Below are positions 1,835-36,152 of a stretch of DNA of 64,000 nucleotides, in pieces. Under the pieces are notes generated by a model. The model was not told the origin of the DNA. It made no database searches and was given only the letters and a program-made list of their open reading frames with translations. Positions within the stretch are counted from its first letter, which is position 1; each line of letters opens with the position of its first letter. This stretch comes from Lytechinus pictus (taxonomy: Eukaryota). A program made the position numbers and the translations under genes. The stretch is from positions 5,830,001-5,894,000 of the forward strand of contig NC_087250.1 of assembly GCF_037042905.1 (NCBI RefSeq), in the 5' to 3' direction.

Positions 1835-1998
1835 TTTTTTCCTGCTCACTGGATGGGTTTTCGAGAGATATTCGTACAGTACATCCCATGTAAACCCTAC
1901 ACCCTCACCGAGTTCGGTGCTCATCTTTACTCCTCTAATGGACGCCATGAGTTCAGGGCTATTGACGGGTCAGGACTGGCTAGAAAGGTTGGATTGAG
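1835..1998 (+). CDS. Exon A: FFPAHWMGFREIFVQYIPCKPYTLTEFGAHLYSSNGRHEFRAIDGSGLARKVGL(R), first half of the PDZ domain
   Basis: Acceptor ccctaattttcag, donor gtaggt. This frame is not the one in the ORF track. Ends in phase 2. Confidence 0.85.
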
Positions 1999-4699: not shown

Positions 4700-4730
<31 letters not shown>

Positions 4731-11444: not shown

Positions 11445-11501
<57 letters not shown>

Positions 11502-13085: not shown

Positions 13086-13136
<51 letters not shown>

Positions 13137-13869: not shown

Positions 13870-13929
<60 letters not shown>

Positions 13930-15714: not shown

Positions 15715-15753
<39 letters not shown>

Positions 15754-16271: not shown

Positions 16272-16312
<41 letters not shown>

Positions 16313-18324
16313 ACAAATGAAGACTTAATAGAAACGCCGTGAGGAGACATAATCTTCCAAATTTTCGGTCACAGACCTTCTTCAGGGATGAATTTATTAA
16401 ATCCAAAACAGGTTGCATCATTCGGCAGTTTGATGATGATACCAACGCGCAATAAATACAATGCGCAACAACATAACGCGACAGGTGCATTGTTAGAAGA
16501 TATTGTGACGTAATGAGTAAGGTCCAGGCAACTATTATGACGTAGAGTAAAAACGGCAAAAGAGTCTATCGTTTCATCGGTAAGAAAGAAAAGTTCACTT
16601 GGTCTCAGGCATTGGGAAGGCGCGGAAAGACACATTCATTCCGTGGGGGGCGAGGGTCCCGAGACTGTAGATCAGCTTCTCTTCTTTGAGTTTGCGATCC
16701 GTCTCCCGGTCGCAAGAGATGGCAACGCATACCTGTAGATCGTTGATGAAATGTCCAGGTTGGTTGAGATGCGTTGCAACTGGAAGCCCTGGGGTCTGTT
16801 GCAGAAAGAGTTGCGTTTAAACGCAAGTCAAAAAATCAATCGCAAGTCCCAAATGCGCACTGTTGATTGGTTGATAATCAAGTTGCGCATGATTTTTAGA
16901 GTTGCGATTGATTGCAACTCTTTCTGCAACGGGACCCAGGTGTGTTAAGTCGGATCGAACGTAGGTTTTCTGTTACTCTGTCTGCCAGACGTCGTTTGGT
17001 CTCTCTAATATAAAGCTTAGAGCAGCAGTATCTCTAGCACCAGTGTGGACTTCCTGGACATCTCCATCTCTATCAAAGATTTAGGTCTTTCAACTGATGT
17101 CTTCTACAAACCTACTTCTTCTCACTCCTACTTGAAATATGACTCCTCCCATCCAGCGGCTTGTAAGAAGGCGATCCCCTACTCCCAGATGACCAGGCTA
17201 CGTAGAATTTGCAGCGATGATGCTTGTTTTGAACAACGGGCTGCCGAGATGGGTGATTTCTTCGTGAAGAGAGGCTACCCTCAGGAGCTCATTCAACACT
17301 CCATTCAAAGATCTAGTTTGATCTCGCAGGACGAAGCTTTGACTGGGAAGATAAACAACAACAAGAGTCGTCGAGTTTCACTAGTGATGACTTATCATCC
17401 CACGTCTGCACTCATTACAAGATCTATCAAAACAACGCCAAGCTGTTCCTGTCATCTCCTTCTTGCAAGGAGATCTTTGATGACAACCCCGTACTTCTGG
17501 CATATCGGAAAGACTGTTCTCTGCGTGACCATCTCGTTCGTTCCAAATTGCCACCTAATCAACCCGCAGATGCACCTGGCACATCTAAATGCGGCAGGCC
17601 GAGATGCAATATATGTCCCTACGTCATGAGGGGAGACGTCATCCAAGGACCCAGAAGAACTTGGCGCGTCAAGGCCTCCTTCAAGTGCACCACCAGAAAC
17701 GTCGTATTTGCTATACGATGCTCTCGCTGCTCTAAGCTTTATGTTGGAGAGACAAAACGACGTCTGGCAGACAGAGTAACAGAGCACCTACGTTCGATCC
17801 GACTTAACACACCTAGCCTTCCAGTTGCAACGCATTTCAACCAACCTGGACATTTCATCAACGATCTACAGGTATGCGTTGCCATCTCTTGCGACCGTGA
17901 GACGGATCGCAAACTCAAAGAAGAGAAGCTGATCTACAGTCTCGGGACCCTCGCCCCCCACGGAATGAATGTGTCTTTCCGCGCCTTCCCAATACCTGAG
18001 ACCAAGTGAACTTTTCTTTTTTACCGATGAATCGATAGACTCTTTTGCCGTTTTTACTCTACGTCATAATAGTTGCCTGGACTTTACTCATCACGTCACA
18101 ATATCTTCTAACAATGCACCTGTCGCGTTACGTTGTTGCGCATTGTATTTATTGCGCGTTGGTATCATCACCAAAATGCCAAATGATGCAACCTGTTTTG
18201 GATTTAATAAATTCATCCCTGAAGAAGGTCTATGACCGAAAATTTGGAAGATTATGTCTCCTCACGGCGTTTCTATTAAGTCTTCATTTGTTTCTACATT
18301 ATGACGCCGACGCAGAACTCTTTG

Positions 18325-18358
<34 letters not shown>

Positions 18359-24300: not shown

Positions 24301-27300
24301 GACGTTACCATCGATATCAAATAGCTGGATGGGGCTCGCTGCATACGCTGCCGCACGCACGACCACGAAGCCATACGAAAAGTACTCCACTACACAATTT
24401 ACAGTACATGGGGCCATACCATCGCATAAGAAACAAAACGGACACGCCAAAGAAAAAAAAGTGTGGAACTTTGTGCTCTCTTGATCTTTTTGAAGTTCCA
24501 TGATATTTGCTCCGGCGACTATTGCTCAGCTGTAAATTCCACACACTAATCGAATGATAAACTTGGTTTAACACTATACCCTACCCTAGAACTAACATAA
24601 AACCCCATTACAACCCTAATTCTAACCTACATCATAGGCGAAATTAGGCCCGGAGTAATTGTCGCAGGAGTAAATGGCGTGTTCCCATTTTGAGTACTTT
24701 TATTAGCATTAAAGGAGCACGGTCTCCGGCACTGTTGGACGGTTTGTACTCGCCGCCATCTCCATGATTACGAAAATCATCGACGTGATTTGGATGCAGA
24801 TGTCAATCATCAGACAGTCATGCAGCACGTGTAGACATTCACAGTACACAGTATACGCTTTGCTGCTTTTTGCTACATCGGCATTGGTCCAATGATCTGC
24901 TGACGTCACGTCACACAGTAGAAGGAGGCAGAACCAACCTGCAAGGATCTTCGAACAGTAGCCGAAGCAAGCGCGAACTGAGAATCGTCAGGGCTCGGGC
25001 ATTCGGAACATGGCATCTTAATTAAAGGTCAAGTCCACCCTAGAAAAATGTTGATATGAATTAATAGAGAAAAAATCAAACTAGCAAAACGCTGAAAATT
25101 TCATCAAAATCGGATGTAAAATAAGAAAGTTATGACACTTTAAAGTTTTACTTATTTTCACAAAACAGTGATATGCACAACTCAAATCAGACGAAAGAAA
25201 TAGTGAGTGGATGACGTCATCTGTCTCCCCATTTGCATACCGACCAGGATGTGTGTATAACTGTTATGTGAAATTAGGCAAAATTTTAAGATGTCATAGC
25301 TTTTTTATTTTACATCCGATTTTGACGAAATTTTCAGTGTTATGCTTGTTGGATTGTTCTCTTTCTATTCAAATCAATTTTTTGTTAGGGTGGACTTGTC
25401 CTTTAACCATGATAACGTTGGTGTCAATGGACAGCTGGTACCGTCCGCAGTGCGTACGTATGTCAAATAGCCCCATCTGAATCCGGGGACCGTGCACCTT
25501 TAAAAAGAGCGTGTTGTGGTCTATCCAGCTTTTTGATATCGATGCAATTCACTTCTTAATATTTTCATGAACTACAGGGTGCGTTGATAGAAAAAAGTTA
25601 CGTTTATGGAAAAGTTTTAAAAGAAAATATGAAGTATTATAATTTAGATGTGCTCTAGAGGTTTTCTCTATCAGAAAAAAAAATGATTTTCTTTATCCGT
25701 GCATGGCTGATCACTGAACATCCCCTTATATCCGAAATTATAAACCGACTTATTTCCAAGTAATAATTCTCTTTATTTTGCATGATGCCTATTATCATGT
25801 TTTTCAGCTTTTATGATCTCGTGTAAATGTAGTTTTGGTGGTATTTTTTATATTAATATATAATTATATATATATATATAGTGTGATGATAAGTTTACTT
25901 CTACCAATCGCTGTTGAGTTGTGAATATTAAACATAATGAGATGAGGCGAGGCCAACTCAACAGATGACGCAGGACACCATTATTTGTCCTGCGTCATCT
26001 GTTGAGTTGGCCTCGCCTCATCTTATTATATATATACAGTGCGTCCCACAAAAAACGAAACCGAGATTTATCGATGATTTATCATAATTTAATCACAAAT
26101 ACAATAGACAAGTGACCTATCATTGTAAAGCTTAGAATCTCCTCTTTCATCTAAAATTACTTAGATTATTTCTCATTCACGCATGAGTGATCAAAAACAA
26201 TCTGAAGAGGGGATACCAAAAAGTCATTTGGCGGGCTGTATCTTGGTTTAAAAAAGAAAACCACATTTCTAAAAAGTTCAATATCTGCTCTTCAATTTGA
26301 TACCTCAATTACAGAAAATGGTCAAGAAATAAGAAAGTTCTGGTTATTTGAAATAAGGGTTGAATTTCAATAATTTCATAAAATGAAGAGGTTTAACAGG
26401 CTAGCGTTCAAACTCACTCGACACTCCGTTTTGTTGACGATCAGCCATGCATCAAGTCTTTTGTTAACCATGCGATAGCTTCTGTGGGAAACCGGTGAAA
26501 ACACGTTTATTTAATGAAATTATGGAAATACAAGCATTGTTTCGAGGGAACGTTACTTTTTTACTTCTTGACCATTTTTGGTGATTAAGGTATCAAATTA
26601 AAGAGCAGATATTGAACTTTTTAGGCATGTGATTTCCTTTTAAAAATTCAGATACCCCCCGCCAAATTAGTTTTTGGTATCCTTTCTTCAAATTGTTTGT
26701 GCTCACTCATGCGTGAATGAGGAATAATCTAAGTAATATCAGATGAAAGATGAGATTCTAAGCTTTACATTGGTAGGTCATTTGTCTATTCTACTTGTGA
26801 TTAAGTTATTATAAATCATCGCTAAATCTCGGTTTCGTTTTTTTCTGGGACGCACTGTATATATATATATATATATATATATGTGTGAATCGTGTAAATG
26901 TATTTTTAGTGGTATTTTTGTATTATATATATATATTTATGGTCAAGTCTGGAGAAGGCCGTTACTGGATAGGTTTCTATCATGCTACGCCCAGATCACT
27001 AGATTACAAGGCCCCCATCTTTAACAAGTTTTTAATTTTGTTTCTAATTTTTAGCCCGTTGTTTAAACCGTATCTATCAACTATTGTTCAAAGTTTCAAA
27101 CAAGTTGTTTCAAAATGTTTAAACCATTTCAAAGAGTTTAATCAATTGTGGACAAAATTAATTAAACAACTTGATAGAGTGTTGGGCTTTACACAACGTG
27201 CTTAGAATTCTAAACGGCGTTTTGTAGGTGAACGTAATAAAGATGATTTGTTTTTATTTTAAATTTCCAGGCAATAGACCGATCGTCAAGGAGCTCTTCA

Positions 27301-30300
27301 CCCATAAGTTCGACAAGCACATCAGGACGTTTCCTTTTCTCGTGATAATTCCTCCCGAGGCTGCGTTCGATGTTAATGCACAGTATACCTACGAGTGTTC
27401 CACCCCCGTCGAGATAATACTCAAAGAAGACGATCTATACATGAAGATCGGTACCGATATGGCGACCTTTGTGTCAGTACCGCGTAAGTTTTGAATAATT
27501 CATTTTTATATTTCACAACAAAGCATAATAACATAATACAAAAAATACATTTCAAACAGTAGATTATGACAATCATGACAATGGCAGTTGTTAAAAGTGA
27601 AATATGAAGGAACCTACAAAACAACGCGGAGCCTGTAATTGAAATAAAATGAATTTATTTTCATACTTCACAACAAAACATAATGACATAATACAAAGAA
27701 AATACATTTGATACATACAGAATAGAGAAGATGATGACAATGGCAGTTAATAAAAAGTGAAATATGAAGGAACCTGCATAAAAAACAGAGCTTGTAATGT
27801 CTGCATGTTCCTTAAATCGTGCGCGAAATGTTATTGAAATGAATTGAATTTATTTTCATACTTCACAACAAAGCATAATGACATAATACAAACAAAAATG
27901 CATTTGATACATACAGAATAGAGAAGATGATGACAATGGCAGTTAATAAAAAGTGAAATATGAAGGAACCTGCATAAAAAACAGAGCTTGTAATGTCTGC
28001 ATGTTCCTTAAATCGTGCGCGAAATGTTATTGAAATGAATTGAATTTATTTTCATACTTCACAACAAAACATATAATAACAAAATAAATATACATTTGAT
28101 ACATACAGAATACAGAAGATGATGATAATGGCAGTTAATAAAAAGTGAAATATGAAGTAACCTGCATAAAAAGCAGAGCCTGTAATGTCTGCAGGTTCCT
28201 TAAATCGCGCGCCAAATGCTATCGCTGTACAGTCACATTGTTCTCATTCACTCATGTAAGTAAGTTTTGTAATTATACATGTATAATGAAACATGTTTAA
28301 ATAATGTATGTATATGTATAATCTTTTAGATAGTCATTACGGTCTGTTTTCTTTTTCAGGCTGTGCCATTCTCTCCTCCTTCAAATTTCTCTTCTTGTAT
28401 ATATTTCCATACTTGATACATTTTTTTTTCGTTCGTTTTTTCTCTCTTTCTTTTGCACTGTAAACAACTGAGAACACACTGTGAGCACACTGAGAACACA
28501 TTGAAAACACTGTGAACACACTATGAATACTCTTTGAACACACTGTGAACACAAAAATAACACATTTTGAGCACACTATGAGCACACTGTGAACACACTG
28601 AACAGACTGTGAACACAATGTGAACACACTATGAAAACATTGTGGACACACTGTGAAGACAAAATGAACACACTCTGAACACACTGTAAACACAATCTGA
28701 ACACGCTGTTAACACACTGAAAACACACTGTGAACACACTATGAATACTCTATGAACACACTGTGAACACAACAAATAACACATTGTGAACACACTATGA
28801 GCACACTGTGAACACACTAAACAGACTGTGAACACAATATGATCACACTATGAACATAATGTGAACATTGTGAACACACTGTATTCTTTCCAGTAGTTAA
28901 ATCGACAACCCTTGACATTTTTGTTTCCAATATACATAGTGTATGTTTATTCATTTTTATCCCTAGCTTTTACAGAACGTGTATCAATGACCTATAAAAT
29001 CATTTTGTGTTTTGCATTTTTAAGAACCGTTTGTAATAAAAAATACAGAAAATATCAGAGAATTTTTTAATTGATTTCATTTCACAGACAAATATTAGAT
29101 CAAAGTGATGTCCATGTTGTATTGGGTCGCGGATAACAGTTCTTCCCCATTGGAATTTTCTTCCATTTGATTATTTTTATCTGTTTTTTTGTGTGTGTAA
29201 TAATGAGCAGAATTCAACCTGCATGAATGCCCGGTTCTTCCTAAATTCCGTGAATTTTCATTACGCTTCTGTATTATTGAAAACCGGGCCGACTACTAGG
29301 CCTGTGTATTAATGTACAGATGAGAAAGAGAACGGGGCCTCCGGACCATCTTCCATCCCCTAAATTAAATTTAACAAAGAAAATGGAGAAAGAAATAAAA
29401 AATTAAAGGGAAAGAGTGAAATATTGTATATAATAGTCTGAATATTGTGTCAAGATCTATTACATTTATATATTAAAAAGGTCGGAATTATTTTTTTTCT
29501 TTTTAGAACTAGCCCTCACAAAAATGAACTGACCAATCAATATCAATGTTACACGGGCATTTGGTTTGAAATACTGACCAGGGACCAATCAGTGCTTTTA
29601 TTCATATTTGCATTTAATCGCAAACATTTGTAATAAGGAGCCCTGGCCTACAAATGTAACAGCAACATTCTATTTTTGTCTCGCCCACCAGAGGTGAAGG
29701 CGAGACTTAGGGATCCAAATGTCGTCCGTCCGTCACAAACCTAATGACACATATCTCCACAACCGTAAGTCGCTTTTCAACCAAACTTGGATGGTAGATG
29801 GACTTGGGGAACCTGCATGTTATGCTGCAGTCGGAGGTCACATGGTAAGGTCAAAGGTCATTTTCAGGTCAACATTAAAGTTTACGTGCAAGGATCTTAT
29901 GACAAGTGTTATTCCATCCCAGTCATTTCACAGTGAAGTTTCGATACAATTCTGTTGCGTGCCCTCGCAAATCGCAATATTTCTGGTTATTTTCATAAGT
30001 GGGCGAGACACAAAATCGCTTTTGCCTTGTTTTTACATATTTTTTTTTTTTCATTGTATTAGAAACTTTAACTCTGAACCGTTACAAAAGAATCGACGAA
30101 AATAATAAGGTCGGCGACGGGCCTGACGGGGGGATCCCAGTTGCCATTTCGACATCAACGCCGCCCTCCAACGTCGAGAGGGACGCCGAGCAGGGAAGCG
30201 ACGATTACGACCCAATGTGCGTCGAAGGCAACACCGAAGGTCCTTTAGGTGTAGTTGTAAGTTCTACTTCGTGTGAGCTCACACTAGATTAGAGCAACAT

Positions 30301-33300
30301 TAAGTCATTCGGTCGCCATTTTTTTTTGGCTTTCAATACAACCACTTCCAAACTTGTTACTTATCAGGCCAGAGTACCTTACACAAAGTCAGTTCATGCT
30401 ACATAAATGTGTTAAGCCCTACAAGTCTACCCGGCATCATCCAATTTTTGGGGTCTATTTTTTACCCCCTTTTTTCATCATTTTACATAGTGAATCAAAA
30501 TAACTTATTTTTTACAATGCCAGGCGATAATTGTATTTGATGATTCAAGTTGTATTTTTGTATTTACATTGCACGATTTGTATGTTTTTTGTTTTTTTTT
30601 GGCGGGGGGGGGGGCGAATAAGTCATAATAATAAGATGTTTTGAAATTTTCCTTACTCATTTCTTCGACTTTTAACTTGGACCCATGAATCAATAACTCG
30701 TTCTTTTTTTTCACCAACTCGTTTCAGCGAAGTACTAGTTTTACAACTTAACAACTCGTTCACTCAAGTTACTTAGTTTACATAACTCTCGACTTCCTAA
30801 CTCGTTCTCTCGATTTACTTACTCGCTCTCACGACTTACCAGCACGTTTTCCCGACTTACTAACTGGCTCTCCCGATTTACAAACTTGGTCTCCCAATTT
30901 CCTAACTCATTCTCTCCACTTTCTAACTCGTTCTTTCGACTTAACAACTCGTTCTCTCCACTTACTAACTCGTTATCATGGTTATCTCGACCTATATTGA
31001 CTCGTCCTCTTCTTACTTTACTTGTTCTCTCCACTTACCTAACTTGCTCTCTCGACTTTCCAACTCATTCTCTTGACTTGTTCTCTCGATTTACTTAACT
31101 CGCTCTCTCGACTCACTAACTCGTTATCTCGACCAACTGACTCGTTCTCTTGACTTACTTAACTTGTTCTCTCAATTTCATTACTCGTTCTCTTGACTTT
31201 AATACTAACTCGTTCACTCGACTTAGTAACTCATTCTCTCCATTAACTAACCGTTCTCCAAACTTTTGACTCGATCTAGACTCACTAATTCATTTTCTCG
31301 ACTTACTGATTCGTTCTCCCGACTTACACTAAAAAAAATTATTGGGTAAAAATGCTCCATGAGCATAATGAGTGTAATTATGTGTCCAACCAACATTGGC
31401 ATTTGATTTATCCAGTGTGATGAAAATTTTTCCCATTCTAACCTTACTGGACAATATGCTTCCCGCATTGGGTAAAATACTACCCCAAATTGGTAGGGCA
31501 CATAATTACCCTCGTGCTGGTTAAAATTTTACACAATATTTTTTACAGTGTACTACACTGTAAAAAAATGAAGTGCTAATTCAGGACTTACAGTGTTTGT
31601 ATAGTGACTGCACTACGAGTGCCGATTTTCTAGTTTAAATTTGAACTAGAAAATCAGCACTCGTATAGTGCAGTCACTTTACAAGCACTGTAAGTGCTAA
31701 CTTAGCACTTCATTTTTTACAGTGTACTATTTGTTCTTACAGGATTTACTGAGTTGCTTTCTTGACTTCCTAACTCGTTCCCGTGACGTACTAGTTCGGT
31801 CTCTCGACTTGCTAACTTGATCTTTCGATGTACTTTAATATTAAAGGTTTTTCCACCCTGGATGACGGAACCGGGCGAGATCCCACAGAATAACATGTTT
31901 TTCCTCACTAGTCTTGCTCCAAGAGGTGATGCTGTGTTCGAGGCTGCAAACACTACAGAAGGTATACCGAATTTATTGATGATGATGGTGGTGGTGGTGG
32001 TCATGATGATGATGATGATAATGATGATGATGGTGATGATGATGATTTTGATGAAGGTGACGATGATGGTGGTGGTGGTGATAATCATTATGATGAGGAT
32101 GATGGTGATGATGATTATGGAAGTGGTGATGATAATGATGACGGTGGTGATGATAATGATGACGGTGGTGATGATAACGATGACGGTGGTGATGATAATG
32201 ATGATTATGGTGGTGGTGATAATGATGGCGGAAATTATGATAATGATGGTGACGATGGTGATGATGAAGGTGTTGATGCTGATGACGGCGATAATGGTGA
32301 CATTGGCCATTAACATCCAATTCGTAGCATAACATGCATGGGGATAAGAAAAAAAAAATAATGATAATGAAAGGAGAGAATCCAACTTTGAACGTATAAT
32401 CTTCAGACAATACTTTGTTGATTAAATTAGAAGAAATGGAAGAAAAATTGAATAAAATTTATGATTTTGAAACAAAGGGCTTGATTACACGTTCCAGGGT
32501 AAAATGGATTGAAGAAGGAGAGAAAAGTACAAAATATTTCTGTAATTTAGAGAATAGGGGTTGGCATAAGAAAAATATTTCAAGGCTAAAAGATCATCAT
32601 GGTAATTTCATTACTGACCCGGTTGGAATTAAAAGAGAAATTCAAAGTTTTTATAGTAAATTATACTCCATCCAGGATGATGCTCAGGGGAACATAAATG
32701 AAAAAGATATAAATGAAAATATGTTTGATAACCTCAATATTCCACAACTACCTGATGATCAAAAACAACTTTTGGATGCTGGACTATCAAAACAAGAAAT
32801 TTTTAATGTCATTAAATCCATGAAATCAAATAAAACACCTGGTTTTGATGGGATACCTGCAGAATTTTATGTTGTTTTTTGGCCAGATATAAATGAAATG
32901 TTAATTAATTCTTTGAATTTCTCACTACAAAATGGCACTTTGTCTCCATCACAAAGAAATGGCATAATCACACTTCTTCCAAAGAAAGACAAAGATCCTC
33001 TCCTTATAAAAAATTATCGTCCAATTACATTATTGACAGTTGATTATAAAATTATTGCTAAATGCTTAGCTAATCGTCTCAAACGATGTTTAGATGATCT
33101 TATCAGTACTGATCAATCCGGTTTTATGAAAGGTAGGACTATTGGTCACAATATTCGCTTGATTCTTGACATAATTGAATACACTGACATGAAAGATATT
33201 CCTGGGTCTATAGTACTGTTAGATATTGAGAAAGCATTTGATAGTGTATCTCACAACTTTTTATTTCTTACATTGGAAAAGTTTAATTTCAGCAATTTTT

Positions 33301-36152
33301 TTATTGAGGCAGTTAAAACTTTATATGCATCTCGCCATGCCTATGTTTTGAACAATGGTTTTCTAACTGAACGTGTCCTTATGGAACGAGGTATTTTTCA
33401 AGGTTGTCCGATTTCTCCATATTTGTTTTTACTTGTGATAGAGATAATGGCAATATCAGTCCGACAAAACAATGCTATTAGAGGTATCCCACTTGAAAAT
33501 GAAGATGTTAAAATATCTCTTTTTGCTGATGATTCGGTATGCTTTTTAAATGGTTCTGATAATTCTTTTTTTGAGCTTTTTGAAACCTTGCAGAAATTTG
33601 GTCGTTTTTCTGGTTGCAAAATTAATTTTAGCAAAACTGAAGCAATATGGATAGGTTCTAAGAAGGGTAATCAACATTTCCCTTACATAAACTGTGGTGT
33701 TTCTTGGAAGGCTTCACAATTTAAATGTTTAGGGGTAGTTTTATCTCTCAATGTTGCACAAATTTATGAGTTAAATTATAAAGAGAAACTAAAAAGAATG
33801 GAGCAAACTTTAAACTGCTGGCGAACTAGAAACCTTTCTCTAATTGGTAGAATCTGTGTTGTCAAAACTCTTATTTTGCCACAGTTAATCTATCTTTTTT
33901 CTGTTCTTTCTGTTAAATTACCCAGAGCCTTTTTTAAAGAATTAAATAAATTATTTTTTAAATTTATTTGGAATGGAGGCAAGGATAGAGTTCAACGTAA
34001 GATAATGTGTAATGATTATACTCAGGCTGGACTTAAAATGATTGACCCTTTTTCTTTTGCATGTGCTCAAAAAATGGTCTGGGTAAAACACCTATTGGAT
34101 GAGAATTTTGATGCTCCATGGAAAAAGATTGAAGTAGCCTTTTTAGAAAAATTTAATCATGATATTCAAATTTTGTGGAAATCTCATGCTCCTGAGAGCA
34201 TTTTAAACAGTCTTGGTAATATACAATTAGCTGAAGCATTGAGAATGTGGTATTCATTTAGGGAGGAAGCTGCTGTCGAATTTTATGGTAACAAATTTTC
34301 AGATTTGAGTGGTTGTCAACTCCTGTGGTATAACAAATTAATTCGTTCAAAATCTAAACAGTATCTTAATTATTCAATGTGGCATGAGAGAAATGTATTA
34401 ATGTTATCTGACTTATTTAATCCTCCTCTTTTAGGTCACAAACTCTTTGAAGAGCTTGTGTTAGATTTTGGAATCCCCCAAACAGACAGAAGGAAATATA
34501 ATTTTTTAATTAAGTGCATCCCGGAAGAATGGTTAGTGAGTTTTGACCCTGATATTATTGGTGTTCATGAAACAATTGTACATAAATTGTTGAGTTATAA
34601 AAAAGTCCCTAGACATTCATACATTTTATTTAGGGGATCACACACACCTGACAAAAGATACACTTATTGGGATGAACGTTTACCAATACCAGTATCTATC
34701 GATTGGGAAAAGGTACACTACACAAATTTTTTTTGTACCATTGATACTAAATTAAGATCATTCTATTTTAAGATCTTTCATAAAGCCATAGCATTAAATG
34801 ATTTTTTGTATAAGATTAAATCTAAGGATTCACCCAATTGTGTTTTCTGTGATAAAAGTGAGGAAACAATTATCCACCTGTTTTGCGAATGTGAAAGGGT
34901 AATTCCTATTTGGCAATCCCTTTTAACGAAAATTTCCCAAAATAATGTTCAAATAAATGGTTCTAATTTTGAAAAAATGTTCGGACTCTCAACTGATAAG
35001 TTCATTTCATACCTTTTTTTACTTTTGAAGTATTATATTCATACATGTAAATTTAAGAATAATCCTCCAAGTTTTGCTCTTTTTAAAACATTTGTTAAAA
35101 AACAACAAGACTTGGAATATTTGATAGCTAAGAAAAAAAACAAGTTGCCCGCTCACTTTAAGAAGTGGCGATTCACCTTATAACTTGGTTGTCAAAAATG
35201 TCAGCAGGTTACACGATAACTAACACTGTATATTTTGTATAACAGGTTTAGTGTCCAATTTTTTAATAATACTGCACTGTATTGGTTATATGGTTGTAGA
35301 CATCAGATCCCATTTTTTCATGCAACTTGTATCTCAGTCACCTTGATATACTTACTAGTATTCGTTTAAAAACCTCTATAATTATGTCGTCTTGGATAAC
35401 CAGTTGTGCTTTTTAATCCTATGAATAGTTGTTTGGAAACCACTTCATATAATCATAGCTTGTATATATTGCTTTGTCTACTTTATTTACCAAACACATT
35501 GCCACATTCCTTTTTTTTGGGGGGGGGGGGGTGGGGAAGGATAAGTGGGTAGGTTTTTTTTTAATTATTATTATGGTTGTTATTTTTTTGTGTAACTAAA
35601 TTGTGTTTATGTGATTTGCAATCACCTATTAATCATTTGTAAATTTTGTGATTTATTTCAATTTGTATAATAAAAACAGAATTATAAAAAAAAAAAAAAC
35701 TTTGAACGTATAATGATGTGTAAAAAATTAGTAAAAGAAATTGTAAAATCATGAACTTTTAGCGGAAAACCGATAATGCTGATAATCACGGACACAAACA
35801 GGTATATGTGGGACAGTATATCAATAATACTGGGAAAAAAATACCCGACATTTTATGGAATTCTGTGCTTATTTTGCTAATTTCTCAGTAATTACGCATT
35901 TATTTCCAGAGGCTTTTACACTCATTTTTTTTATTTATACATACAAACACTCTGGTGGCCATTTTATTGGATTCCGTTCGAACTTATTTTGAGGACCTTA
36001 CCACAACTGGTATTATTTTGTTCACAACCTTCCGTTTCCTCTCAACAGAACAACTATACATATCATCAGTCGATAACCAAGACCCAAGTGTGTTGATTGC
36101 TAGCCTTGAAAAATCCAGCGCCGACTTTAGAGTAATTCGGTCAGATTCGTGA
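1835..36152 (+). CDS. Spliced gene encoding a PDZ domain plus IL-1-family beta-trefoil protein (nIL-1F / ancient IL-1-like); join(1835-1998,21279-21387,24234-24291,27271-27483,30063-30256,31847-31961,36049-36152). The 5' end is uncertain.
   Basis: All six introns are GT..AG with matching phases (2,0,1,1,0,1), giving 957 nt of open frame ending in TGA. PDZ-like segment: EFGAHLYSSNGRHEFRAIDGSGLARKVGLRNRDVLLTINN...ICLVVER. IL-1-like motifs: GIPVAIS, MCVEG, MFFL, FEAANTTEEQLYISSVDNQDPSVLIASLEKSSADFRVI. An in-frame ATG lies at 1853. Confidence 0.85.
2013..2310 (-). mobile_element. tRNA-derived SINE
   Basis: Minus-strand head ggagcgttgtggcccagaggattag...gggttcaaatccc (A and B boxes), (att)n tail. 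A second copy starts at 63293. Confidence 0.9.
2830..2904. repeat. Perfect inverted repeat, 35-bp arms and 5-nt loop
   Basis: ttgagtagaagaaataaccagttgtctcacgatgt-agcaa-acatcgtgagacaactggttatttcttctactcaa. Confidence 0.95.
3120..3400. repeat. Degenerate (cacagtgtgtt)n repeat
   Basis: Visible ~11-bp motif. A complementary tract lies at 28455-28880. Confidence 0.85.
3650..4420. repeat. 59-bp minisatellite (about 9 good copies, then degenerate)
   Basis: Unit tataatttcaaagtgtggctaccttgaggaatatactccacagtgtgcgtgtgtgtcag, interrupted at about 4192-4325. Confidence 0.95.
4968..6419. mobile_element. Non-autonomous Kolobok-like DNA transposon
   Basis: TTAA on both sides and perfect 15-bp TIR agttgaattaagaag / cttcttaattcaact. 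Internal inverted repeats gagtgtgacgtcaccggggg at about 5158 and 6212. Confidence 0.8.
6710..6900. mobile_element. Short MITE with internal gggtta-like repeats
   Basis: Imperfect TIRs acgacatttgctctggtgacaattgctc / gagcaattgttaccgggcctaatgtcat. Confidence 0.6.
8535..9520. repeat. ~170-180-bp tandem repeat, about 5-6 diverging copies
   Basis: Recurring aaaattgcgagggagcaaagcgacc...gtgtcccacagcagggaaaattttgc. Confidence 0.9.
11130..11500. repeat. ~115-bp tandem repeat x3 with (aat)n spacers
   Basis: gagatatagatttttacaaagcaaaatttgataaatgc is repeated three times. Confidence 0.9.
11520..12960 (+). pseudogene. Degraded CR1/L2-group LINE reverse transcriptase
   Basis: Fragments GLDGLHP, KIIPIYKSGDK, SKILEKRIHQQLYEYL, NQSGFRP, GSTLGPLIFSIFMND, LYADDT and FKYLGVTID, with frameshifts. 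Confidence 0.9.
12166..12368 (-). mobile_element. hAT-like MITE (cagtggcgtacctagg family)
   Basis: TIRs cattagcgtaccta / taggtacgccactg. 8-bp TSD ctgataac / ctgacaac. Confidence 0.85.
13010..13175. repeat. (taaa)n microsatellite
   Basis: Seen directly. Confidence 0.95.
15797..16278. mobile_element. Element with ~100-bp inverted arms enclosing a tRNA-Glu-like sequence, located between (TA)n tracts
   Basis: 15797-15899 is the inverted copy of 16176-16278. Minus strand 15901-15971 reads gtggtctagtg...gggttcgattcccgg. Confidence 0.7.
16355..16390 (-). ncRNA. Minimal hammerhead ribozyme, inverted pLTR copy
   Basis: Reverse complement reads catccCTGAAGAaggtctgtgaccGAAAatttgga. Confidence 0.75.
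16789..16939. mobile_element. PIF/Harbinger-like MITE inserted in the inverted pLTR
   Basis: TIRs gggtctgttgcagaaagagttgc / gcaactctttctgcaacgggaccc with CWG flanks. Absent from the sense copy. Confidence 0.8.
18214..18250 (+). ncRNA. Minimal hammerhead ribozyme in the Penelope pLTR
   Basis: tcc-CTGAAGA-a-ggtc tat gacc-GAAA-attt-gga, the CUGANGA / stem II / GAAA core. Confidence 0.75.
18459..18500 (-). ncRNA. Third minimal hammerhead with a different stem II (remnant of another Penelope family)
   Basis: Reverse complement reads tatccCTGAAGAa-gacgt atgttta acgtc-GAAAatttggaa. Confidence 0.7.
18789..19182. mobile_element. Kolobok-like MITE
   Basis: ttaa|agagaaattccagt ... actggaatttatct|ttaa. 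Confidence 0.8.
19657..21255. mobile_element. PIF/Harbinger-like MITE hosting a nested element
   Basis: tta|aggccaccgcacacgttacga ... tcgtaaggtgtgcggtcgcct|tta. Confidence 0.8.
19787..20972. mobile_element. Nested PIF/Harbinger-like element with a ~470-bp internal duplication
   Basis: TIR agcccctttcacaattgacgtacgacc at both ends with taa/tta flanks. The 5' part repeats from about 20259. Confidence 0.85.
21279..21387 (+). CDS. Exon B: NRDVLLTINNLTSGLTNSNPLAILECLTDIGPNICL, second half of the PDZ domain
   Basis: Acceptor gttcatacag, donor gtaata. Phase 2 to 0. Joined to exon A it gives the PDZ motif GLRxxDxLLxIN. Confidence 0.85.
21500..21667. mobile_element. Palindromic MITE
   Basis: ttgctatgatagcaactcttt..ggaatgtcaact / agttgacattcc..aaagagttgctatcatagcaa. 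Confidence 0.65.
22069..22532. mobile_element. Foldback MITE, Mutator-like
   Basis: ~195-bp near-perfect inverted arms and a ~74-bp spacer. 9-bp TSD ggtacttgc at 22060-22068 and 22533-22541. Confidence 0.9.
22685..24192. repeat. ~94-bp minisatellite, about 16 copies
   Basis: Unit gactacatatcctaatatgttca...ttcgctaatcctcgtgtcaatggagttactttcatttcatttt. Confidence 0.95.
24234..24291 (+). CDS. Exon C: VVERNGNETWLFAFHLDEE(G), last PDZ strand plus linker
   Basis: Long polypyrimidine tract then cag. The donor gtacaa is weak. Phase 0 to 1. Completes the LVVER strand. Confidence 0.75.
24713..25499. mobile_element. Kolobok-like MITE
   Basis: ttaa|aggagcacggtctccgg ... ccggggaccgtgcacct|ttaa. Confidence 0.8.
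25026..25402. mobile_element. Kolobok-like MITE family 1, internally deleted copy
   Basis: ttaa|aggtcaagtccaccc ... gggtggacttgtcct|ttaa. Longer copies start at 42765 and 60849. Confidence 0.9.
25934..26029. repeat. Inverted repeat, 44-bp arms (1 mismatch) and 8-nt loop
   Basis: ataatgagatgaggcgaggccaactcaacagatgacgcaggaca and its complement, lying between (TA)n tracts. Confidence 0.95.
26037..26857. mobile_element. Tc1/mariner-like foldback MITE
   Basis: ta|cagtgcgtcccac...tgggacgcactg|ta, with long imperfect TIRs of about 300 bp. Confidence 0.9.
27271..27483 (+). CDS. Exon D: NRPIVKELFTHKFDKHIRTFPFLVIIPPEAAFDVNAQYTYECSTPVEIILKEDDLYMKIGTDMATFVSVP, linker and probable start of the trefoil
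   Basis: Acceptor tttccag, consensus donor gtaagt. 213 nt, phase 1 to 1. GC-richer than its flanks. Confidence 0.85.
27495..28210. repeat. ~195-bp tandem repeat, about 3.5 copies
   Basis: tcatacttcacaacaaa recurs at 27661, 27856 and 28052. Confidence 0.9.
28455..28880. repeat. (tgtgaacacac)n degenerate repeat
   Basis: Seen directly. Confidence 0.9.
29673..30031 (+). mobile_element. Non-autonomous Helentron-associated (HINE / DINE-1-like) element
   Basis: 5' subTIR ttttgtctcgccc, nearby partial IR ggcgagac, (gtcc)n microsatellite, 3' subTIR gggcgagaca, T-rich flanks. Confidence 0.65.
30063..30256 (+). CDS. Exon E: (Q)TLTLNRYKRIDENNKVGDGPDGGIPVAISTSTPPSNVERDAEQGSDDYDPMCVEGNTEGPLGVV
   Basis: Acceptor tttttcattgtattag, donor gtaagt at 30257. 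Phase 1 to 0. Contains the IL-1-like IPVAI motif. Confidence 0.85.
30690..31330. repeat. Degenerate ~21-bp repeat (ctaactcgttctctcgactta)
   Basis: Seen directly. Confidence 0.85.
31328..31724. mobile_element. Two adjacent cactgtaaaa-type MITEs with TA flanks
   Basis: About 31328-31550 (a relative lies at about 7177-7383) and the palindromic 31556-31724 (cactgtaaaaaaatgaagtgctaa / ttagcacttcattttttacagtg). Confidence 0.75.
31847..31961 (+). CDS. Exon F: VFPPWMTEPGEIPQNNMFFLTSLAPRGDAVFEAANTTE
   Basis: Acceptor attaaag is weak, donor gtatac. Phase 0 to 1. The MFFL...FEAA pattern matches IL-1 FVFN...FESA. Confidence 0.75.
31975..32300. repeat. (gat/ggt)n trinucleotide tract
   Basis: Source of the poly-M, poly-H and poly-I ORFs in the track. 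Confidence 0.95.
32401..35697 (+). mobile_element. 5'-truncated L1/Tx1-clade LINE
   Basis: 17-bp TSD aactttgaacgtataat at 32384-32400 and 35698-35714, poly(A) tail, ~500-nt 3' UTR. Confidence 0.95.
32415..35183 (+). CDS. L1/Tx1 ORF2 lacking the endonuclease: RT plus C-terminal CCHC zinc motif
   Basis: 922 uninterrupted codons. Motifs GEKSTKYF, KTPGFDG, NYRPITLL, DIEKAFD, QGCPISP, FADD and CVFC..ETIIHLFCEC. Confidence 0.97.
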   Translation: MLIKLEEMEEKLNKIYDFETKGLITRSRVKWIEEGEKSTKYFCNLENRGWHKKNISRLKDHHGNFITDPVGIKREIQSFYSKLYSIQDDAQGNINEKDINENMFDNLNIPQLPDDQKQLLDAGLSKQEIFNVIKSMKSNKTPGFDGIPAEFYVVFWPDINEMLINSLNFSLQNGTLSPSQRNGIITLLPKKDKDPLLIKNYRPITLLTVDYKIIAKCLANRLKRCLDDLISTDQSGFMKGRTIGHNIRLILDIIEYTDMKDIPGSIVLLDIEKAFDSVSHNFLFLTLEKFNFSNFFIEAVKTLYASRHAYVLNNGFLTERVLMERGIFQGCPISPYLFLLVIEIMAISVRQNNAIRGIPLENEDVKISLFADDSVCFLNGSDNSFFELFETLQKFGRFSGCKINFSKTEAIWIGSKKGNQHFPYINCGVSWKASQFKCLGVVLSLNVAQIYELNYKEKLKRMEQTLNCWRTRNLSLIGRICVVKTLILPQLIYLFSVLSVKLPRAFFKELNKLFFKFIWNGGKDRVQRKIMCNDYTQAGLKMIDPFSFACAQKMVWVKHLLDENFDAPWKKIEVAFLEKFNHDIQILWKSHAPESILNSLGNIQLAEALRMWYSFREEAAVEFYGNKFSDLSGCQLLWYNKLIRSKSKQYLNYSMWHERNVLMLSDLFNPPLLGHKLFEELVLDFGIPQTDRRKYNFLIKCIPEEWLVSFDPDIIGVHETIVHKLLSYKKVPRHSYILFRGSHTPDKRYTYWDERLPIPVSIDWEKVHYTNFFCTIDTKLRSFYFKIFHKAIALNDFLYKIKSKDSPNCVFCDKSEETIIHLFCECERVIPIWQSLLTKISQNNVQINGSNFEKMFGLSTDKFISYLFLLLKYYIHTCKFKNNPPSFALFKTFVKKQQDLEYLIAKKKNKLPAHFKKWRFTL
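36049..36152 (+). CDS. Terminal exon G: (E)QLYISSVDNQDPSVLIASLEKSSADFRVIRSDS*
   Basis: Strong acceptor ccttccgtttcctctcaacag, phase 1, TGA at 36150-36152. YIS..P.V..DF signature. Confidence 0.85.

What the first reader, a model, noticed from the sequence alone, without database searches (positions are those of the whole stretch)
1835..36152. Hidden 7-exon gene for an invertebrate interleukin-1-family protein with an N-terminal PDZ domain
Seen in sequence: seven short exons over 34 kb splice in frame with canonical GT-AG introns to about 318 aa. The first ~95 aa have PDZ hallmarks (FG-x-L loop, A-x-x-x-GL-R-x-x-D-x-LL-x-IN, terminal LVVER). The last ~170 aa align by eye, in order, with human IL-1beta motifs: GIPVAIS vs KIPVALG; MCVEG vs LSCVLK; NMFFL...VFEAA vs RFVFN...EFESA; LYISSVDNQDPSVLI...SADFRV vs WYISTSQAENMPVFL...ITDFTM. 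No signal peptide is visible, as in leaderless IL-1s. Established knowledge: IL-1 ligands were long known only from vertebrates, and fish nIL-1F carries PDZ plus IL-1. I recall recent reports of PDZ-IL-1 'ancient IL-1' genes in invertebrates, so the family may be described even if this locus is not. Inference: this is an echinoderm-type IL-1 cytokine precursor, implying an IL-1-like ligand system outside vertebrates.
Basis: partly seen in the sequence, partly recalled or inferred. Interest (0 to 1): 0.95.

Follow-up and report, generated by a model that had tools for sequence, protein, structure and literature searches.

The report
Unlisted sea urchin IL-1-like gene
The seven exons are real and belong to a sea urchin gene for a PDZ-plus-interleukin-1-like protein, a family published in 2026, but this copy and its closest relatives are missing from that paper's gene list and are wrongly modelled in the public annotation.

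Summary
Confirmed. Seven + strand exons (1835-36152) join through six GT-AG introns into 957 nt, or 318 codons plus a stop. Exons 2-7 equal residues 128-390 of NCBI LOC129263511 (Lytechinus pictus). That model's first 127 residues come from a dispersed GIY-YIG repeat in intron 1.

The gene is larger than the finding says. A 95-codon first coding exon (MGAKGSKK...) lies 9.2 kb upstream of the window, giving 413 aa.

A family profile hits solved PDZ domains at E 6.8e-10. The AlphaFold C-terminal domain is a beta-trefoil. Its best matches are IL-18 and IL-1alpha in Foldseek (E 1.3e-5) and IL-1alpha in VIA (Z 16.0), though other trefoils follow closely.

A profile without any published member hits LpicIL-1.4 (E 3.3e-21) and PminIL-1.3 (E 2.8e-13) of Fontenla-Iglesias et al. 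2026. All six intron phases match LpicIL-1.4.

So this is a member of the published IL-1anc family. Neither it nor the 11 relatives' ids I searched are in that paper's tables, apart from PminIL-1.3.

No transcript evidence was obtained. Cytokine function is inferred.

The parts
1835..1998 (+). It encodes FFPAHWMGFREIF...GLARKVGL(R), the first half of the PDZ domain including the EFGA carboxylate-loop equivalent. It ends in phase 2.
   Evidence: Acceptor ttttcag| and donor |gtaggt. Aligns to L. variegatus LOC121417411 residues 102-178. The ATG at 1853 is internal, since relatives read HWIGFRE.
21279..21387 (+). Coding exon 3. It encodes (R)NRDVLLTINN...GPNICL, the second part of the PDZ domain. 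It ends in phase 0.
   Evidence: Identical to P0001 from residue 128 on. The intron position and phase match LpicIL-1.4.
24234..24291 (+). Coding exon 4. It encodes VVERNGNETWLFAFHLDEE(G), the last PDZ strand and the first strand of a beta-hairpin linker. It ends in phase 1.
   Evidence: strands 192-199 and 203-214 in the model of the L. variegatus relative.
27271..27483 (+). Coding exon 5. It encodes (G)NRPIVKELF...ATFVSVP(Q), the second hairpin strand and the first strands of the trefoil. It ends in phase 1.
   Evidence: Structural matches to IL-1 family chains begin at P0001 residue 218-228, which lies in this exon.
30063..30256 (+). Coding exon 6. It encodes trefoil strands with GIPVAIS and MCVEG, separated by an acidic loop of lower confidence. 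It ends in phase 0.
   Evidence: 100% identity to P0001; mean pLDDT 62-78 over residues 261-300 of the model.
31847..31961 (+). Coding exon 7. It encodes VFPPWMTEPGEIPQNNMFFL...AVFEAANTTE, carrying FEA where the family has its F/LES motif. It ends in phase 1.
   Evidence: alignment with PminIL-1.3, which reads FES there.
36049..36152 (+). Last coding exon. It encodes (E)QLYISSVDNQDPSVLIASLEKSSADFRVIRSDS, followed by TGA at 36150-36152.
36153..36215 (+). Twenty-one in-frame codons after the TGA (SQTSLKDIFSRLADSEKRPES, then three stops). They match the C-terminal tail that the paralog and the L. variegatus protein still translate. The TGA stands where they read Gly.
17626..18006 (+). Repeat-derived open frame in intron 2 that NCBI's model LOC129263511 uses as its first 127 residues. 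Not part of the gene as read here.
   Evidence: P0001 residues 1-127 match here at 100%, and partial copies lie inverted at 16598-17024. There is a weak GIY-YIG Pfam hit. At least 27 matches were found in the genome.
32400..35183 (+). Open frame of 927 codons without a stop, for a reverse transcriptase, inside the last intron. It is a retrotransposon insertion, not part of the gene.
   Evidence: RVT_1 at E 2.5e-36 and zf-RVT at E 1.6e-8.

Best explanation
The seven exons are coding exons 2-8 of an eight-coding-exon Lytechinus pictus gene (NCBI LOC129263511). It encodes a 413-aa leaderless protein with four parts. First, a disordered region of about 100 residues that starts MGAKGSKK. Second, a PDZ domain. 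Third, a beta-hairpin linker. Fourth, a C-terminal IL-1-like beta-trefoil. The gene belongs to the published IL-1anc family, in a sea-urchin-expanded branch whose nearest listed relatives are LpicIL-1.3/1.4 and PminIL-1.3. It is the faster-evolving copy of a tandem pair. The mechanism below is inferred by analogy with the characterised S. purpuratus and lamprey IL-1anc proteins and with IL-1beta; it was not tested here. The protein would be made in the cytosol as a pro-form and possibly held at membranes by N-myristoylation of Gly2. It would be cut between the PDZ domain and the trefoil on an immune signal and released without a signal peptide. The trefoil would then act as ligand for an Ig-TIR receptor. 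What is shown here: the gene structure, the two folds, homology to listed family members, and the shared intron phases. What is inferred: expression, lipidation, processing, secretion and receptor binding.
For: Gene structure: six GT-AG introns and 318 codons. E2-E7 are identical to P0001 residues 128-390. Exon 0 has an ATG and a GCG|gtaggt donor, and is 74.5% identical by tblastn to residues 1-102 of L. variegatus LOC121417411. A six-frame search of the genome with that protein gave 23 matches, all on contig C6. They form two tandem sets of 8 exons each (5.785-5.812 Mb and 5.821-5.866 Mb), plus 7 matches at 4.69-4.74 Mb.

PDZ: the profile of alignment A5 hits solved PDZ domains (PSD-95 at E 6.8e-10, Shank3 at E 7e-9; all 60 rows shown are PDZ-containing chains). 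The AlphaFold model of the L. variegatus relative has strand-strand-strand-helix-strand-helix-strand order at residues 107-199, with pLDDT 88-97.

Trefoil: the model of P0001 has pLDDT 84-96 over most of residues 130-390. In Foldseek against the PDB, all 16 rows listed to rank 18 are IL-18 entries or complexes, or IL-1alpha (best E 1.3e-5, TM by target 0.68-0.78). The first other protein is lysenin at rank 19. The second model gives the same picture. VIA against 48,161 chains puts IL-1alpha first (Z 16.0, rmsd 2.5, 137 aligned), IL-33 second (14.5), IL-37 fourth (14.0) and IL-36gamma sixth (13.6).

Family link: profile A2 (6 sequences, none listed in the paper) was run against 1.84 billion representatives and gave 22 hits at E <= 0.001. 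They include LOC129260728, which is LpicIL-1.4 (E 3.3e-21, profile positions 50-335), and Patiria LOC119723835, which is PminIL-1.3 (E 2.8e-13).

Introns: LpicIL-1.4 on contig C20 has intron phases 2,0,1,1,0,1 at homologous places, so 6 of 6 match the window gene.

No leader: the longest hydrophobic run in the first 95 residues is 2.

Constraint: dN/dS against the tandem paralog is 0.17 in the PDZ region.
Against: Pfam gives no IL1 (PF00340) hit at E <= 1 on P0001, P0003 or P0004. Its only PDZ hit is below threshold (PDZ_6, 16.3 bits against a cut-off of 27, on P0004 alone).

In VIA other trefoils follow closely. A bacterial lacto-N-biosidase module scores Z 14.3, FGF12 13.3 and fascin 12.9, while IL-1beta scores only 12.7 and IL-1Ra 12.7. 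The fold alone therefore does not settle the superfamily.

The family's F/LES motif reads FEA here.

No transcript evidence was obtained, and NCBI's model joins E2 to a different upstream exon.

There are signs of relaxed constraint. Trefoil dN/dS is 0.76. There are 40 residues unique to this copy against 18 for the paralog (p = 0.005). A TGA stands where relatives read Gly and cuts off a conserved 22-residue tail.

No conserved caspase-type Asp was found between the PDZ domain and the trefoil. The D of FHLD is N or Y in S. purpuratus relatives.
Confidence: 0.85

Rival explanations
1. The gene is a real IL-1anc-type duplicate but is on its way to becoming a pseudogene. It would be a redundant tandem copy under relaxed selection that has already lost its C-terminal tail to a nonsense change and may be poorly expressed or silent.
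For: The TGA at 36150 stands where the paralog and L. variegatus read Gly, and the 21 codons behind it are still intact. There are 40 copy-specific residue changes against 18 in the paralog (binomial p = 0.005). The terminal branch is about twice as long (0.13 against 0.064). dN/dS in the trefoil is 0.76. Introns are swollen by repeats: exon 0 to E1 is 10.7 kb against about 0.55 kb in the paralog, and E1 to E2 is 19.3 kb against about 11.3 kb.
Against: All eight exons are open, and all seven donor-acceptor pairs are canonical. PDZ dN/dS is 0.17. The stop leaves the last trefoil strand in place, since structural alignments run to residue 388-390. High dN/dS is expected for cytokine domains, and the source paper has a section on rapid evolution of IL-1s (seen as a heading in the outline only).
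Confidence: 0.2
2. The C-terminal domain is a beta-trefoil of another lineage (lectin-like, FGF-like or fascin-like) fused to a PDZ domain. Its likeness to IL-1 would then be only the shared fold, and the protein would not be an IL-1 homologue.
For: No Pfam IL1 hit. VIA found 145 chains with Z of 8 or more, with many non-IL-1 trefoils within 2-3 Z units of the top. The ESM Atlas feature search names fascin, ricin-type and protease-inhibitor trefoils at low scores of 0.82-0.83. Sequence identity to IL-1 family chains is 9-15%.
Against: IL-1 family chains are first in two independent aligners and on two models, and they have the longest aligned lengths (137-139 against 107-132). The ESM Atlas structure search lists two IL-1 clusters first (TM 0.52 and 0.54). 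The PDZ-plus-trefoil architecture, the FE(S/A) motif followed by an aromatic-YIS strand, and six shared intron phases tie it to proteins that the 2026 paper supports as IL-1 homologues by synteny, induction and caspase cleavage.
Confidence: 0.07
3. NCBI's model is right. On this reading E2 is spliced to the repeat-derived exon at 17626-18006, and E1 and exon 0 belong to another transcript or to none.
For: This is the deposited model (P0001). No reads could be laid to test it.
Against: That exon lies in a dispersed repeat with at least 27 matches in the genome and a GIY-YIG endonuclease signature. Using it leaves half a PDZ domain. E1 and exon 0 are conserved in order, phase and sequence with the tandem paralog, with L. 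variegatus LOC121417411 and with S. purpuratus proteins. The E1/E2 junction splits the same Arg codon in phase 2 as in LpicIL-1.4.
Confidence: 0.05

Closest known systems
LpicIL-1.4 / LpicIL-1.3 (LOC129260728 / LOC129260727) and PminIL-1.3 (Patiria miniata LOC119723835), listed as IL-1anc in Table S2 of PMC13736523
   Same: PDZ followed by a trefoil with no leader. They were hit by a profile built only from the window gene's close relatives (E 3.3e-21 and 2.8e-13, across both domains). LpicIL-1.4 shares 6 of 6 intron positions and phases. All are echinoderm genes.
   Different: LpicIL-1.4 and PminIL-1.3 are only 21% and 23% identical to the L. variegatus relative of the window gene. They lie on another contig (C20) and in a separate clade of the tree. 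They lack the exon that encodes the MGxKxSKK N-terminal region, since LpicIL-1.4 starts MANSFRG.
SpurIL-1.1 to SpurIL-1.5 of Strongylocentrotus purpuratus (the experimentally studied sea urchin IL-1anc proteins, PMC13736523)
   Same: The same domain architecture, as described in the paper (section 7 and Table S2 rows read). They are the source of the inferred mechanism: immune induction, cytoplasmic or nuclear pro-forms, and caspase cleavage of SpurIL-1.3 (passages read).
   Different: None of the hits whose source I looked up carries one of their LOC numbers, so they are more distant. Of the 22 hits, P0018, P0019, P0023, P0026 and P0027 were never looked up, and P0013 and P0016 carry no name. 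The S. purpuratus relatives of the window gene (LOC100889353, LOC105445920, LOC100893893, LOC105437773, LOC105442755 and LOC100892317) are different genes and are absent from the paper's tables.
Vertebrate IL-1 family (IL-18, IL-1alpha, IL-33, IL-37, IL-36gamma, IL-1beta, IL-1Ra; Pfam PF00340)
   Same: The beta-trefoil fold, and these are the best structural matches. No signal peptide, as in IL-1alpha, IL-1beta and IL-18 (established knowledge).
   Different: 9-15% identity and no Pfam IL1 hit. Mammalian members have no PDZ domain. Receptor binding and caspase-1 processing are untested here.
PDZ-containing vertebrate IL-1s: lumpfish nIL-1F and lamprey PmarIL-1.2/1.3 (as described in PMC13736523, passage read; PMC7144542 seen in the search listing only)
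   Same: An N-terminal PDZ domain plus a C-terminal IL-1 trefoil, and leaderless.
   Different: No sequence comparison was made here, and none appeared among the 22 profile hits.
Pro-IL-16 (a PDZ-containing cytokine precursor; PMC8326423 seen in the search listing and abstract only)
   Same: A PDZ domain in a leaderless cytokine precursor.
   Different: IL-16 has no trefoil, and its active part is itself a PDZ domain (established knowledge). The window protein's C-terminal domain is a trefoil.

Membership tests
IL-1anc (PDZ + IL-1 trefoil; Fontenla-Iglesias et al. 2026) | PDZ domain N-terminal to the trefoil | tested here: met
   The family profile hits solved PDZ domains at E 6.8e-10 to 2e-4, and all 60 rows shown are PDZ-containing chains. 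The model has PDZ strand and helix order at pLDDT 88-97. Pfam alone is below threshold (PDZ_6, 16.3 bits against 27).
IL-1anc (PDZ + IL-1 trefoil; Fontenla-Iglesias et al. 2026) | C-terminal beta-trefoil whose nearest solved structures are IL-1 family cytokines | tested here: met
   Foldseek: IL-18 and IL-1alpha fill all rows listed to rank 18 (E from 1.3e-5, TM by target 0.68-0.78). The second model gives the same result. VIA: IL-1alpha Z 16.0, IL-33 14.5, IL-37 14.0. The best other trefoil scores 14.3, so the margin is modest.
IL-1anc (PDZ + IL-1 trefoil; Fontenla-Iglesias et al. 2026) | Significant sequence similarity to listed members | tested here: met
   A profile without any listed member hits LpicIL-1.4 at E 3.3e-21 and PminIL-1.3 at E 2.8e-13. 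Their identities were checked.
IL-1anc (PDZ + IL-1 trefoil; Fontenla-Iglesias et al. 2026) | Conserved intron phasing in the PDZ and trefoil domains | tested here: met
   Phases are 2,0,1,1,0,1 in the window gene and in LpicIL-1.4, at homologous residues. The comparison with human IL-1 genes was not possible, because the paper's Extended Data Fig. 7 is not held as text.
IL-1anc (PDZ + IL-1 trefoil; Fontenla-Iglesias et al. 2026) | F/LES motif in beta-strand 9 | tested here: inconclusive
   The window reads FEA (AVFEAAN), S. purpuratus relatives read FKA, and PminIL-1.3 reads FES in the same alignment columns. The paper allows 'FES motif (or related sequence)' (legend read).
IL-1anc (PDZ + IL-1 trefoil; Fontenla-Iglesias et al. 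2026) | No signal peptide | tested here: met
   The true N-terminal exon is hydrophilic. The longest hydrophobic run in the first 95 residues is 2, and the maximum 9-residue Kyte-Doolittle mean is 0.61. No dedicated predictor was available.
IL-1anc (PDZ + IL-1 trefoil; Fontenla-Iglesias et al. 2026) | Immune-induced expression, proteolytic maturation, extracellular signalling through an IL-1R-like receptor | not testable with these tools
   No reads could be laid. There was no assay.
Interleukin-1 family as defined by Pfam PF00340 (IL1) | Match to the IL1 profile at or above its gathering score | tested here: not met
   No IL1 hit at E <= 1 on P0001, P0003 or P0004. The six-frame genome search with PF00340 found nothing, but its controls rang nowhere, so it says little. 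The paper reports the same failure of sequence methods for the whole IL-1anc family (section 7).
N-myristoylated proteins (NMT substrates) | N-terminal M-G-{EDRKHPFYW}-x-x-[STAGCN]-{P} (a pattern recalled from PROSITE, not from a call) | tested here: met
   Window exon 0 reads MGAKGSKK. 15 of the 40 stored proteins fit the pattern, from Lytechinus, Strongylocentrotus and Diadema gene models. The modification itself is untested.

The most novel reading that the evidence does not exclude
The window gene would represent a distinct branch of IL-1anc cytokines, expanded in sea urchins and absent from the published catalogue. L. pictus has at least four such loci on contig C6, and S. purpuratus has at least six gene models. 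Its members would be N-myristoylated at a conserved MGxKxSKK start and therefore held at membranes as pro-forms. That would be a way of staging a leaderless IL-1 before release that has not been described for the family. It would also mean that sea urchin IL-1 repertoires are about twice the five genes per species reported.
Probability: 0.35. Interest if true: 0.65.

Novelty: new member of a known kind. Interest (0 to 1): 0.5.

Why it matters
IL-1 ligands outside vertebrates were established only in 2025-2026. That paper's catalogue lists five genes each for L. pictus, L. variegatus and S. purpuratus.

This locus shows that the catalogue is incomplete for sea urchins. A whole branch escaped, most likely for two reasons: its PDZ domain falls below Pfam thresholds, and its FES motif reads FEA or FKA. 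The L. pictus gene models at this locus are also broken. One borrows a transposon exon, and one runs from the paralog into this gene's first exon.

Correct models are needed before expression, knock-down or receptor-pairing work in this genetically tractable urchin.

The conserved myristoylation-type start is a concrete, cheap-to-test lead on how a leaderless IL-1 is positioned before release.

The tandem pair offers a natural case of cytokine duplication and divergence, with a conserved PDZ domain, a fast-evolving trefoil and a fresh nonsense change.

Tried and rejected
No junction is therefore tested against reads.

2. PF00340 against the whole genome in six frames gave no match, but the controls rang nowhere, so this is uninformative.

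3. Pfam on P0001, P0003, P0004, P0006, P0007 and P0008 gave no IL1 hit and only one sub-threshold PDZ hit.

4. The family profile against PDB sequences showed no IL-1 chain among the 60 rows shown of 265, because PDZ hits fill the list. A trefoil-only profile was not built.

5. The ESM Atlas feature search gave only low scores (0.82-0.83) to mixed trefoil families. These are leads only.

6. A caspase site between the PDZ domain and the trefoil: FHLD|E was considered by eye and dropped, because S. purpuratus relatives read N or Y at the D, and the model puts it inside a strand.

7. Synteny with ESD, which the paper reports for sea urchin IL-1 loci: the only two Esterase (PF00756) matches are on contig C16, not C6.

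8. A second gene copy in the window: tblastn with four relatives finds one set of exons only.

9. Other genes in the flanks: Pfam on 57 open frames of 75 or more codons outside the gene gave one weak COR-A hit (E 5.9e-4, below cut-off) and nothing else.

10. Earlier notes of this scan: nothing to show.

11. Literature by gene id: 0 papers for six LOC numbers of this clade.
Full report
OBSERVATION. The window is G000:C6:5830001-5894000 of an 811.7-Mb assembly. Protein hits name the organism as Lytechinus pictus.

Reading the sequence at the places the finding implies and checking by script gives seven + strand exons:
- E1 1835-1998
- E2 21279-21387
- E3 24234-24291
- E4 27271-27483
- E5 30063-30256
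- E6 31847-31961
- E7 36049-36152

All six introns begin GT and end AG. The exons total 957 nt, which is 318 codons plus TGA. The end phases are 2,0,1,1,0,1.

IT IS AN ANNOTATED BUT MIS-MODELLED GENE. A search with E5 alone among longer proteins returned 4 proteins at E <= 0.01 out of 25 candidates. The best was NCBI 'uncharacterized protein LOC129263511 [Lytechinus pictus]' (P0001, 390 aa, 100% identity). Residues 128-390 of P0001 equal the translation of E2-E7 exactly (263 of 263).

Its first 127 residues map instead to 17626-18006 in the long intron. That stretch has a weak GIY-YIG hit. It has partial inverted copies at 16598-17024 and at least 27 matches across the genome at 77-100% identity. 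It is therefore a dispersed repeat, and using it leaves only half a PDZ domain.

E1 aligns to residues 102-178 of L. variegatus LOC121417411 (P0004, 442 aa). That protein has about 100 further residues upstream.

A six-frame search of the genome with P0004 gave 23 matches, all on contig C6:
- eight for an upstream tandem paralog (5,784,729-5,811,745)
- eight for the window gene, the first at 5,820,803-5,821,099
- seven at 4.69-4.74 Mb on the minus strand, which sort into two further paralogs

The fetched upstream DNA shows ATG...GCG|gtaggt at L024 803-1087. This is 95 codons reading MGAKGSKKSNRATVDN..., ending in phase 0 to meet E1. The gene thus has eight coding exons and encodes 413 aa. The ATG at 1853 is an internal Met.

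Two more NCBI models at the locus are also broken. LOC129263514 (P0005) runs from the paralog's exons into the window gene's first exon. LOC129263515 (P0003) holds only the paralog's 3' half.

DOMAINS. Pfam is nearly blind here. There is no IL1 hit at E <= 1. The only PDZ hit is PDZ_6 at 16.3 bits (cut-off 27), on P0004. The S. purpuratus relatives P0006 and P0007 have no hit at all.

A profile of 27 family sequences, however, hits solved PDZ domains: PSD-95 at E 6.8e-10 and Shank3 at E 7e-9. All 60 rows shown are PDZ-containing chains.

AlphaFold2 with that alignment gave two models:
- For P0001: mean pLDDT 69, with residues 130-390 mostly 84-96.
- For P0004: mean pLDDT 76, with residues 1-104 under 50 and most of 111-430 above 85. 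Dips are residues 231-240 (65) and 301-330 (66-83), and the tail from 421 falls to 78 and lower.

The P0004 model shows a PDZ-order domain (107-199), a beta-hairpin (203-228) and a multi-stranded C-terminal domain.

Foldseek against the PDB with the P0001 model lists IL-18 entries or complexes in 15 rows and IL-1alpha (2ila) in one. These fill every listed row to rank 18 (E 1.3e-5 to 3.4e-4, TM by target 0.68-0.78). One of these, 4hjj_A, is titled only as an antibody complex. Lysenin follows at rank 19, and IL-1beta, IL-37 and designed Symfoil proteins at E 2-5e-3. The P0004 model gives the same order.

VIA-align against 48,161 representative chains, which does not depend on Foldseek, gives these scores:
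- IL-1alpha: Z 16.0, rmsd 2.5, 137 aligned (rank 1)
- IL-33: 14.5
- a bacterial lacto-N-biosidase trefoil module: 14.3
- IL-37: 14.0
- IL-36gamma: 13.6
- FGF12: 13.3
- fascin: 12.9
- IL-1Ra: 12.7
- IL-1beta: 12.7

Six of the 50 rows shown are IL-1 family chains, and 145 chains have Z of 8 or more.

The fold is a beta-trefoil beyond doubt. IL-1 cytokines are the best matches by two methods and have the longest alignments. The margin over other trefoils is modest, so structure alone does not prove homology. The ESM Atlas agrees as a lead: by structure its first two clusters are IL-1 (TM 0.52 and 0.54).

LINK TO THE PUBLISHED FAMILY. [quoted passage not shown] I read its abstract, sections 7 and 20, passages, and rows of Supplementary Tables 1 and 2. 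It defines IL-1anc proteins as an N-terminal PDZ domain plus a C-terminal IL-1 trefoil. These are leaderless, occur across Eumetazoa, and number five genes in S. purpuratus. The paper reports immune induction, cytoplasmic or nuclear pro-forms, and caspase cleavage of SpurIL-1.3.

L. pictus (Lp3.0) was among its genomes. Table S2 lists LpicIL-1.1 to 1.5 as LOC129278821, LOC129278820, LOC129260727, LOC129260728 and LOC129279149.

None of the following occurs in the seven supplementary files held: LOC129263511, LOC129263514, LOC129263515, L. variegatus LOC121417411, LOC121416645 or LOC121417426, or S. purpuratus LOC100889353, LOC105445920, LOC100893893, LOC105437773, LOC105442755 or LOC100892317. 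The four of them that I also searched in the main text (LOC100889353, LOC105445920, LOC100893893, LOC105437773) are absent there too. No paper in the searchable library mentions any of the six ids of this clade that I searched.

The gene nevertheless belongs to that family. A profile of six close relatives, none of them listed, was run against 1.84 billion representatives and gave 22 hits at E <= 0.001. Every hit that a source names is an echinoderm protein. P0013 and P0016 come from unnamed assemblies. One hit, P0024, is a 954-residue repeat protein of no named source, which I take as spurious. P0018, P0019, P0023, P0026 and P0027 were not looked up.

The hits include LOC129260728, which is LpicIL-1.4 (E 3.3e-21 over profile positions 50-335, so both domains), and Patiria miniata LOC119723835, which is PminIL-1.3 (E 2.8e-13).

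I then located LpicIL-1.4 on contig C20 and solved its splice junctions against its protein. Its intron phases are 2,0,1,1,0,1, at the residues that align with the window gene's junctions. For example, both split the Arg of G(L/F)R|N in phase 2, both cut before (V/L)V(E/R)R in phase 0, and both cut between the FES-equivalent exon and the (L)Y(I/V)S exon in phase 1. Six of six agree.

Why the paper missed this branch is plausible from its methods. It screened with the Pfam profiles PF17817 and PF13180 and then for an F/LES motif. This branch fails Pfam PDZ thresholds and reads FEA or FKA.

PLACE IN THE FAMILY AND STATE OF THE GENE. In a maximum-likelihood tree of 15 proteins, the window gene, its tandem paralog and L. 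variegatus LOC121417411 form one group (support 100/99), unresolved inside. The tree left out fragments, chimeric models and P0024, and was rooted at the midpoint only. S. purpuratus LOC100889353 is sister to that group (92/90). LpicIL-1.4, LvarIL-1.4 and S. purpuratus LOC105445138 form a separate long-branched group.

The paralog is intact in this assembly, with eight exons and canonical sites. Between the two copies, amino-acid identity is 340 of 407 aligned codons and dS is 0.176. dN/dS is 0.56 overall, 0.50 in the N-terminal region, 0.17 in the PDZ region and 0.76 in the trefoil.

Against L. variegatus, the window copy has 40 private residues and the paralog 18 (binomial p = 0.005). This would also be expected if the L. 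variegatus gene is the paralog's strict orthologue.

The TGA at 36150-36152 stands where the paralog and L. variegatus read Gly. The next 21 codons (SQTSLKDIFSRLADSEKRPES) are intact and end at the same stop as in the relatives. This looks like a recent nonsense change, or an allele or error. It removes a 22-residue tail but leaves the last trefoil strand.

The window copy is therefore the faster-evolving, intron-swollen copy of a tandem pair. It is open in all exons, with a constrained PDZ domain and a fast trefoil.

A CONSERVED START. Exon 0 begins MGAKGSKK. The same kind of start occurs in these gene models:
- MGAKGSKK in L. variegatus LOC121417411 and L. pictus LOC129263514
- MGGKASKK in S. 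purpuratus LOC105445920, LOC105437773 and LOC100892317
- MGIHASKG in L. variegatus LOC121416645 and LOC121417426
- MGSKASKH in Diadema
- MGGNICCC in S. purpuratus LOC105439374

Fifteen of the 40 stored proteins fit the N-myristoylation consensus, a pattern I recalled from PROSITE. Most of the others are fragments, truncated models or the IL-1.3/1.4 clade. The region behind the start is hydrophilic and modelled as disordered. The word 'myristoyl' does not occur in the paper's main text. I did not search its supplements for it. This is a motif-level inference only.

HOW IT MOST LIKELY WORKS. Shown here: the gene structure, the two folds, homology to listed IL-1anc members and the absence of a leader. 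The rest is inferred from the family and from IL-1beta: a cytosolic pro-form, perhaps membrane-tethered through Gly2 myristate and the adjacent lysines; cleavage somewhere between the PDZ domain and the trefoil on an immune signal; release without the secretory pathway; and action of the trefoil on an Ig-TIR receptor. No conserved cleavage site was found, and no expression data could be obtained.

VERDICT. It is a new member, representing an unlisted sea urchin branch, of a kind published in 2025-2026.

It is of moderate interest on three counts. It corrects three public gene models. It shows that the published sea urchin IL-1 catalogue is incomplete. It also brings a testable lead on lipid anchoring. 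What stays open is whether this particular copy is expressed and functional.

Noticed in passing
window 36150-36215: The gene's TGA stop stands where the tandem paralog and the L. variegatus protein read Gly. The 21 codons after it are intact (SQTSLKDIFSRLADSEKRPES, then stops), so this looks like a recent nonsense change, an allele or an assembly error.
   Followed up: partly
window 32400-35183 (+): There is an uninterrupted 927-codon reverse-transcriptase frame (RVT_1 at E 2.5e-36, zf-RVT at E 1.6e-8) inside the gene's last intron, in the same orientation as the gene. It may be a young non-LTR retrotransposon.
   Followed up: partly
window 16598-18009: Inverted partial copies of a dispersed repeat with a weak GIY-YIG endonuclease signature (at least 27 genome matches). 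NCBI's model of LOC129263511 takes its first exon from it. The element class was not established.
   Followed up: partly
G000:C6:5784729-5811745 (upstream of the window; loci L001, L002, L005, L006, L010, L011, L013, L021): An intact tandem paralog with eight exons. NCBI splits it into LOC129263514 and LOC129263515. The former model runs on into the window gene's first coding exon.
   Followed up: yes
G000:C6:4692636-4738578, minus strand (loci L015-L020, L023): Two more paralogs of the same branch, 36-63% identical to the window protein exon by exon. They correspond by sequence to L. variegatus LOC121416645 and LOC121417426. They are not in the published IL-1anc list either.
   Followed up: partly
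window 31962-32330: Directly after the E6 donor, a long simple repeat reads as runs of M, V and I in one frame and of D, G and H in others. This gives deceptively long open frames on both strands (181, 234 and 161 codons).
   Followed up: no
window 22650-24110: Open frames of about 47-56 codons recur with near-identical text (...SLILVSMELLSFHFDYIS) at irregular spacing. This is a tandem or clustered repeat inside intron 3.
   Followed up: no
window 8496-9604: Repeated units encode ...KIAREQSD...GKFCIV.QKTRFLVHICDVIMWCVMYY... on the + strand, in a G-rich stretch (GC skew +0.27). They look like tandem copies of an unidentified element in intron 2.
   Followed up: no
window 12550-12840 (+): A reverse-transcriptase fragment (RVT_1 at E 7.2e-15) in intron 2, flanked by low-complexity sequence.
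   Followed up: no
P0013, P0016, P0038-P0040 (Logan assemblies, unnamed): Members of the same protein branch occur on short contigs of unnamed public assemblies (contigs of 913-1508 bases). At that length the contigs could be transcripts, but their kind was not checked.
   Followed up: no
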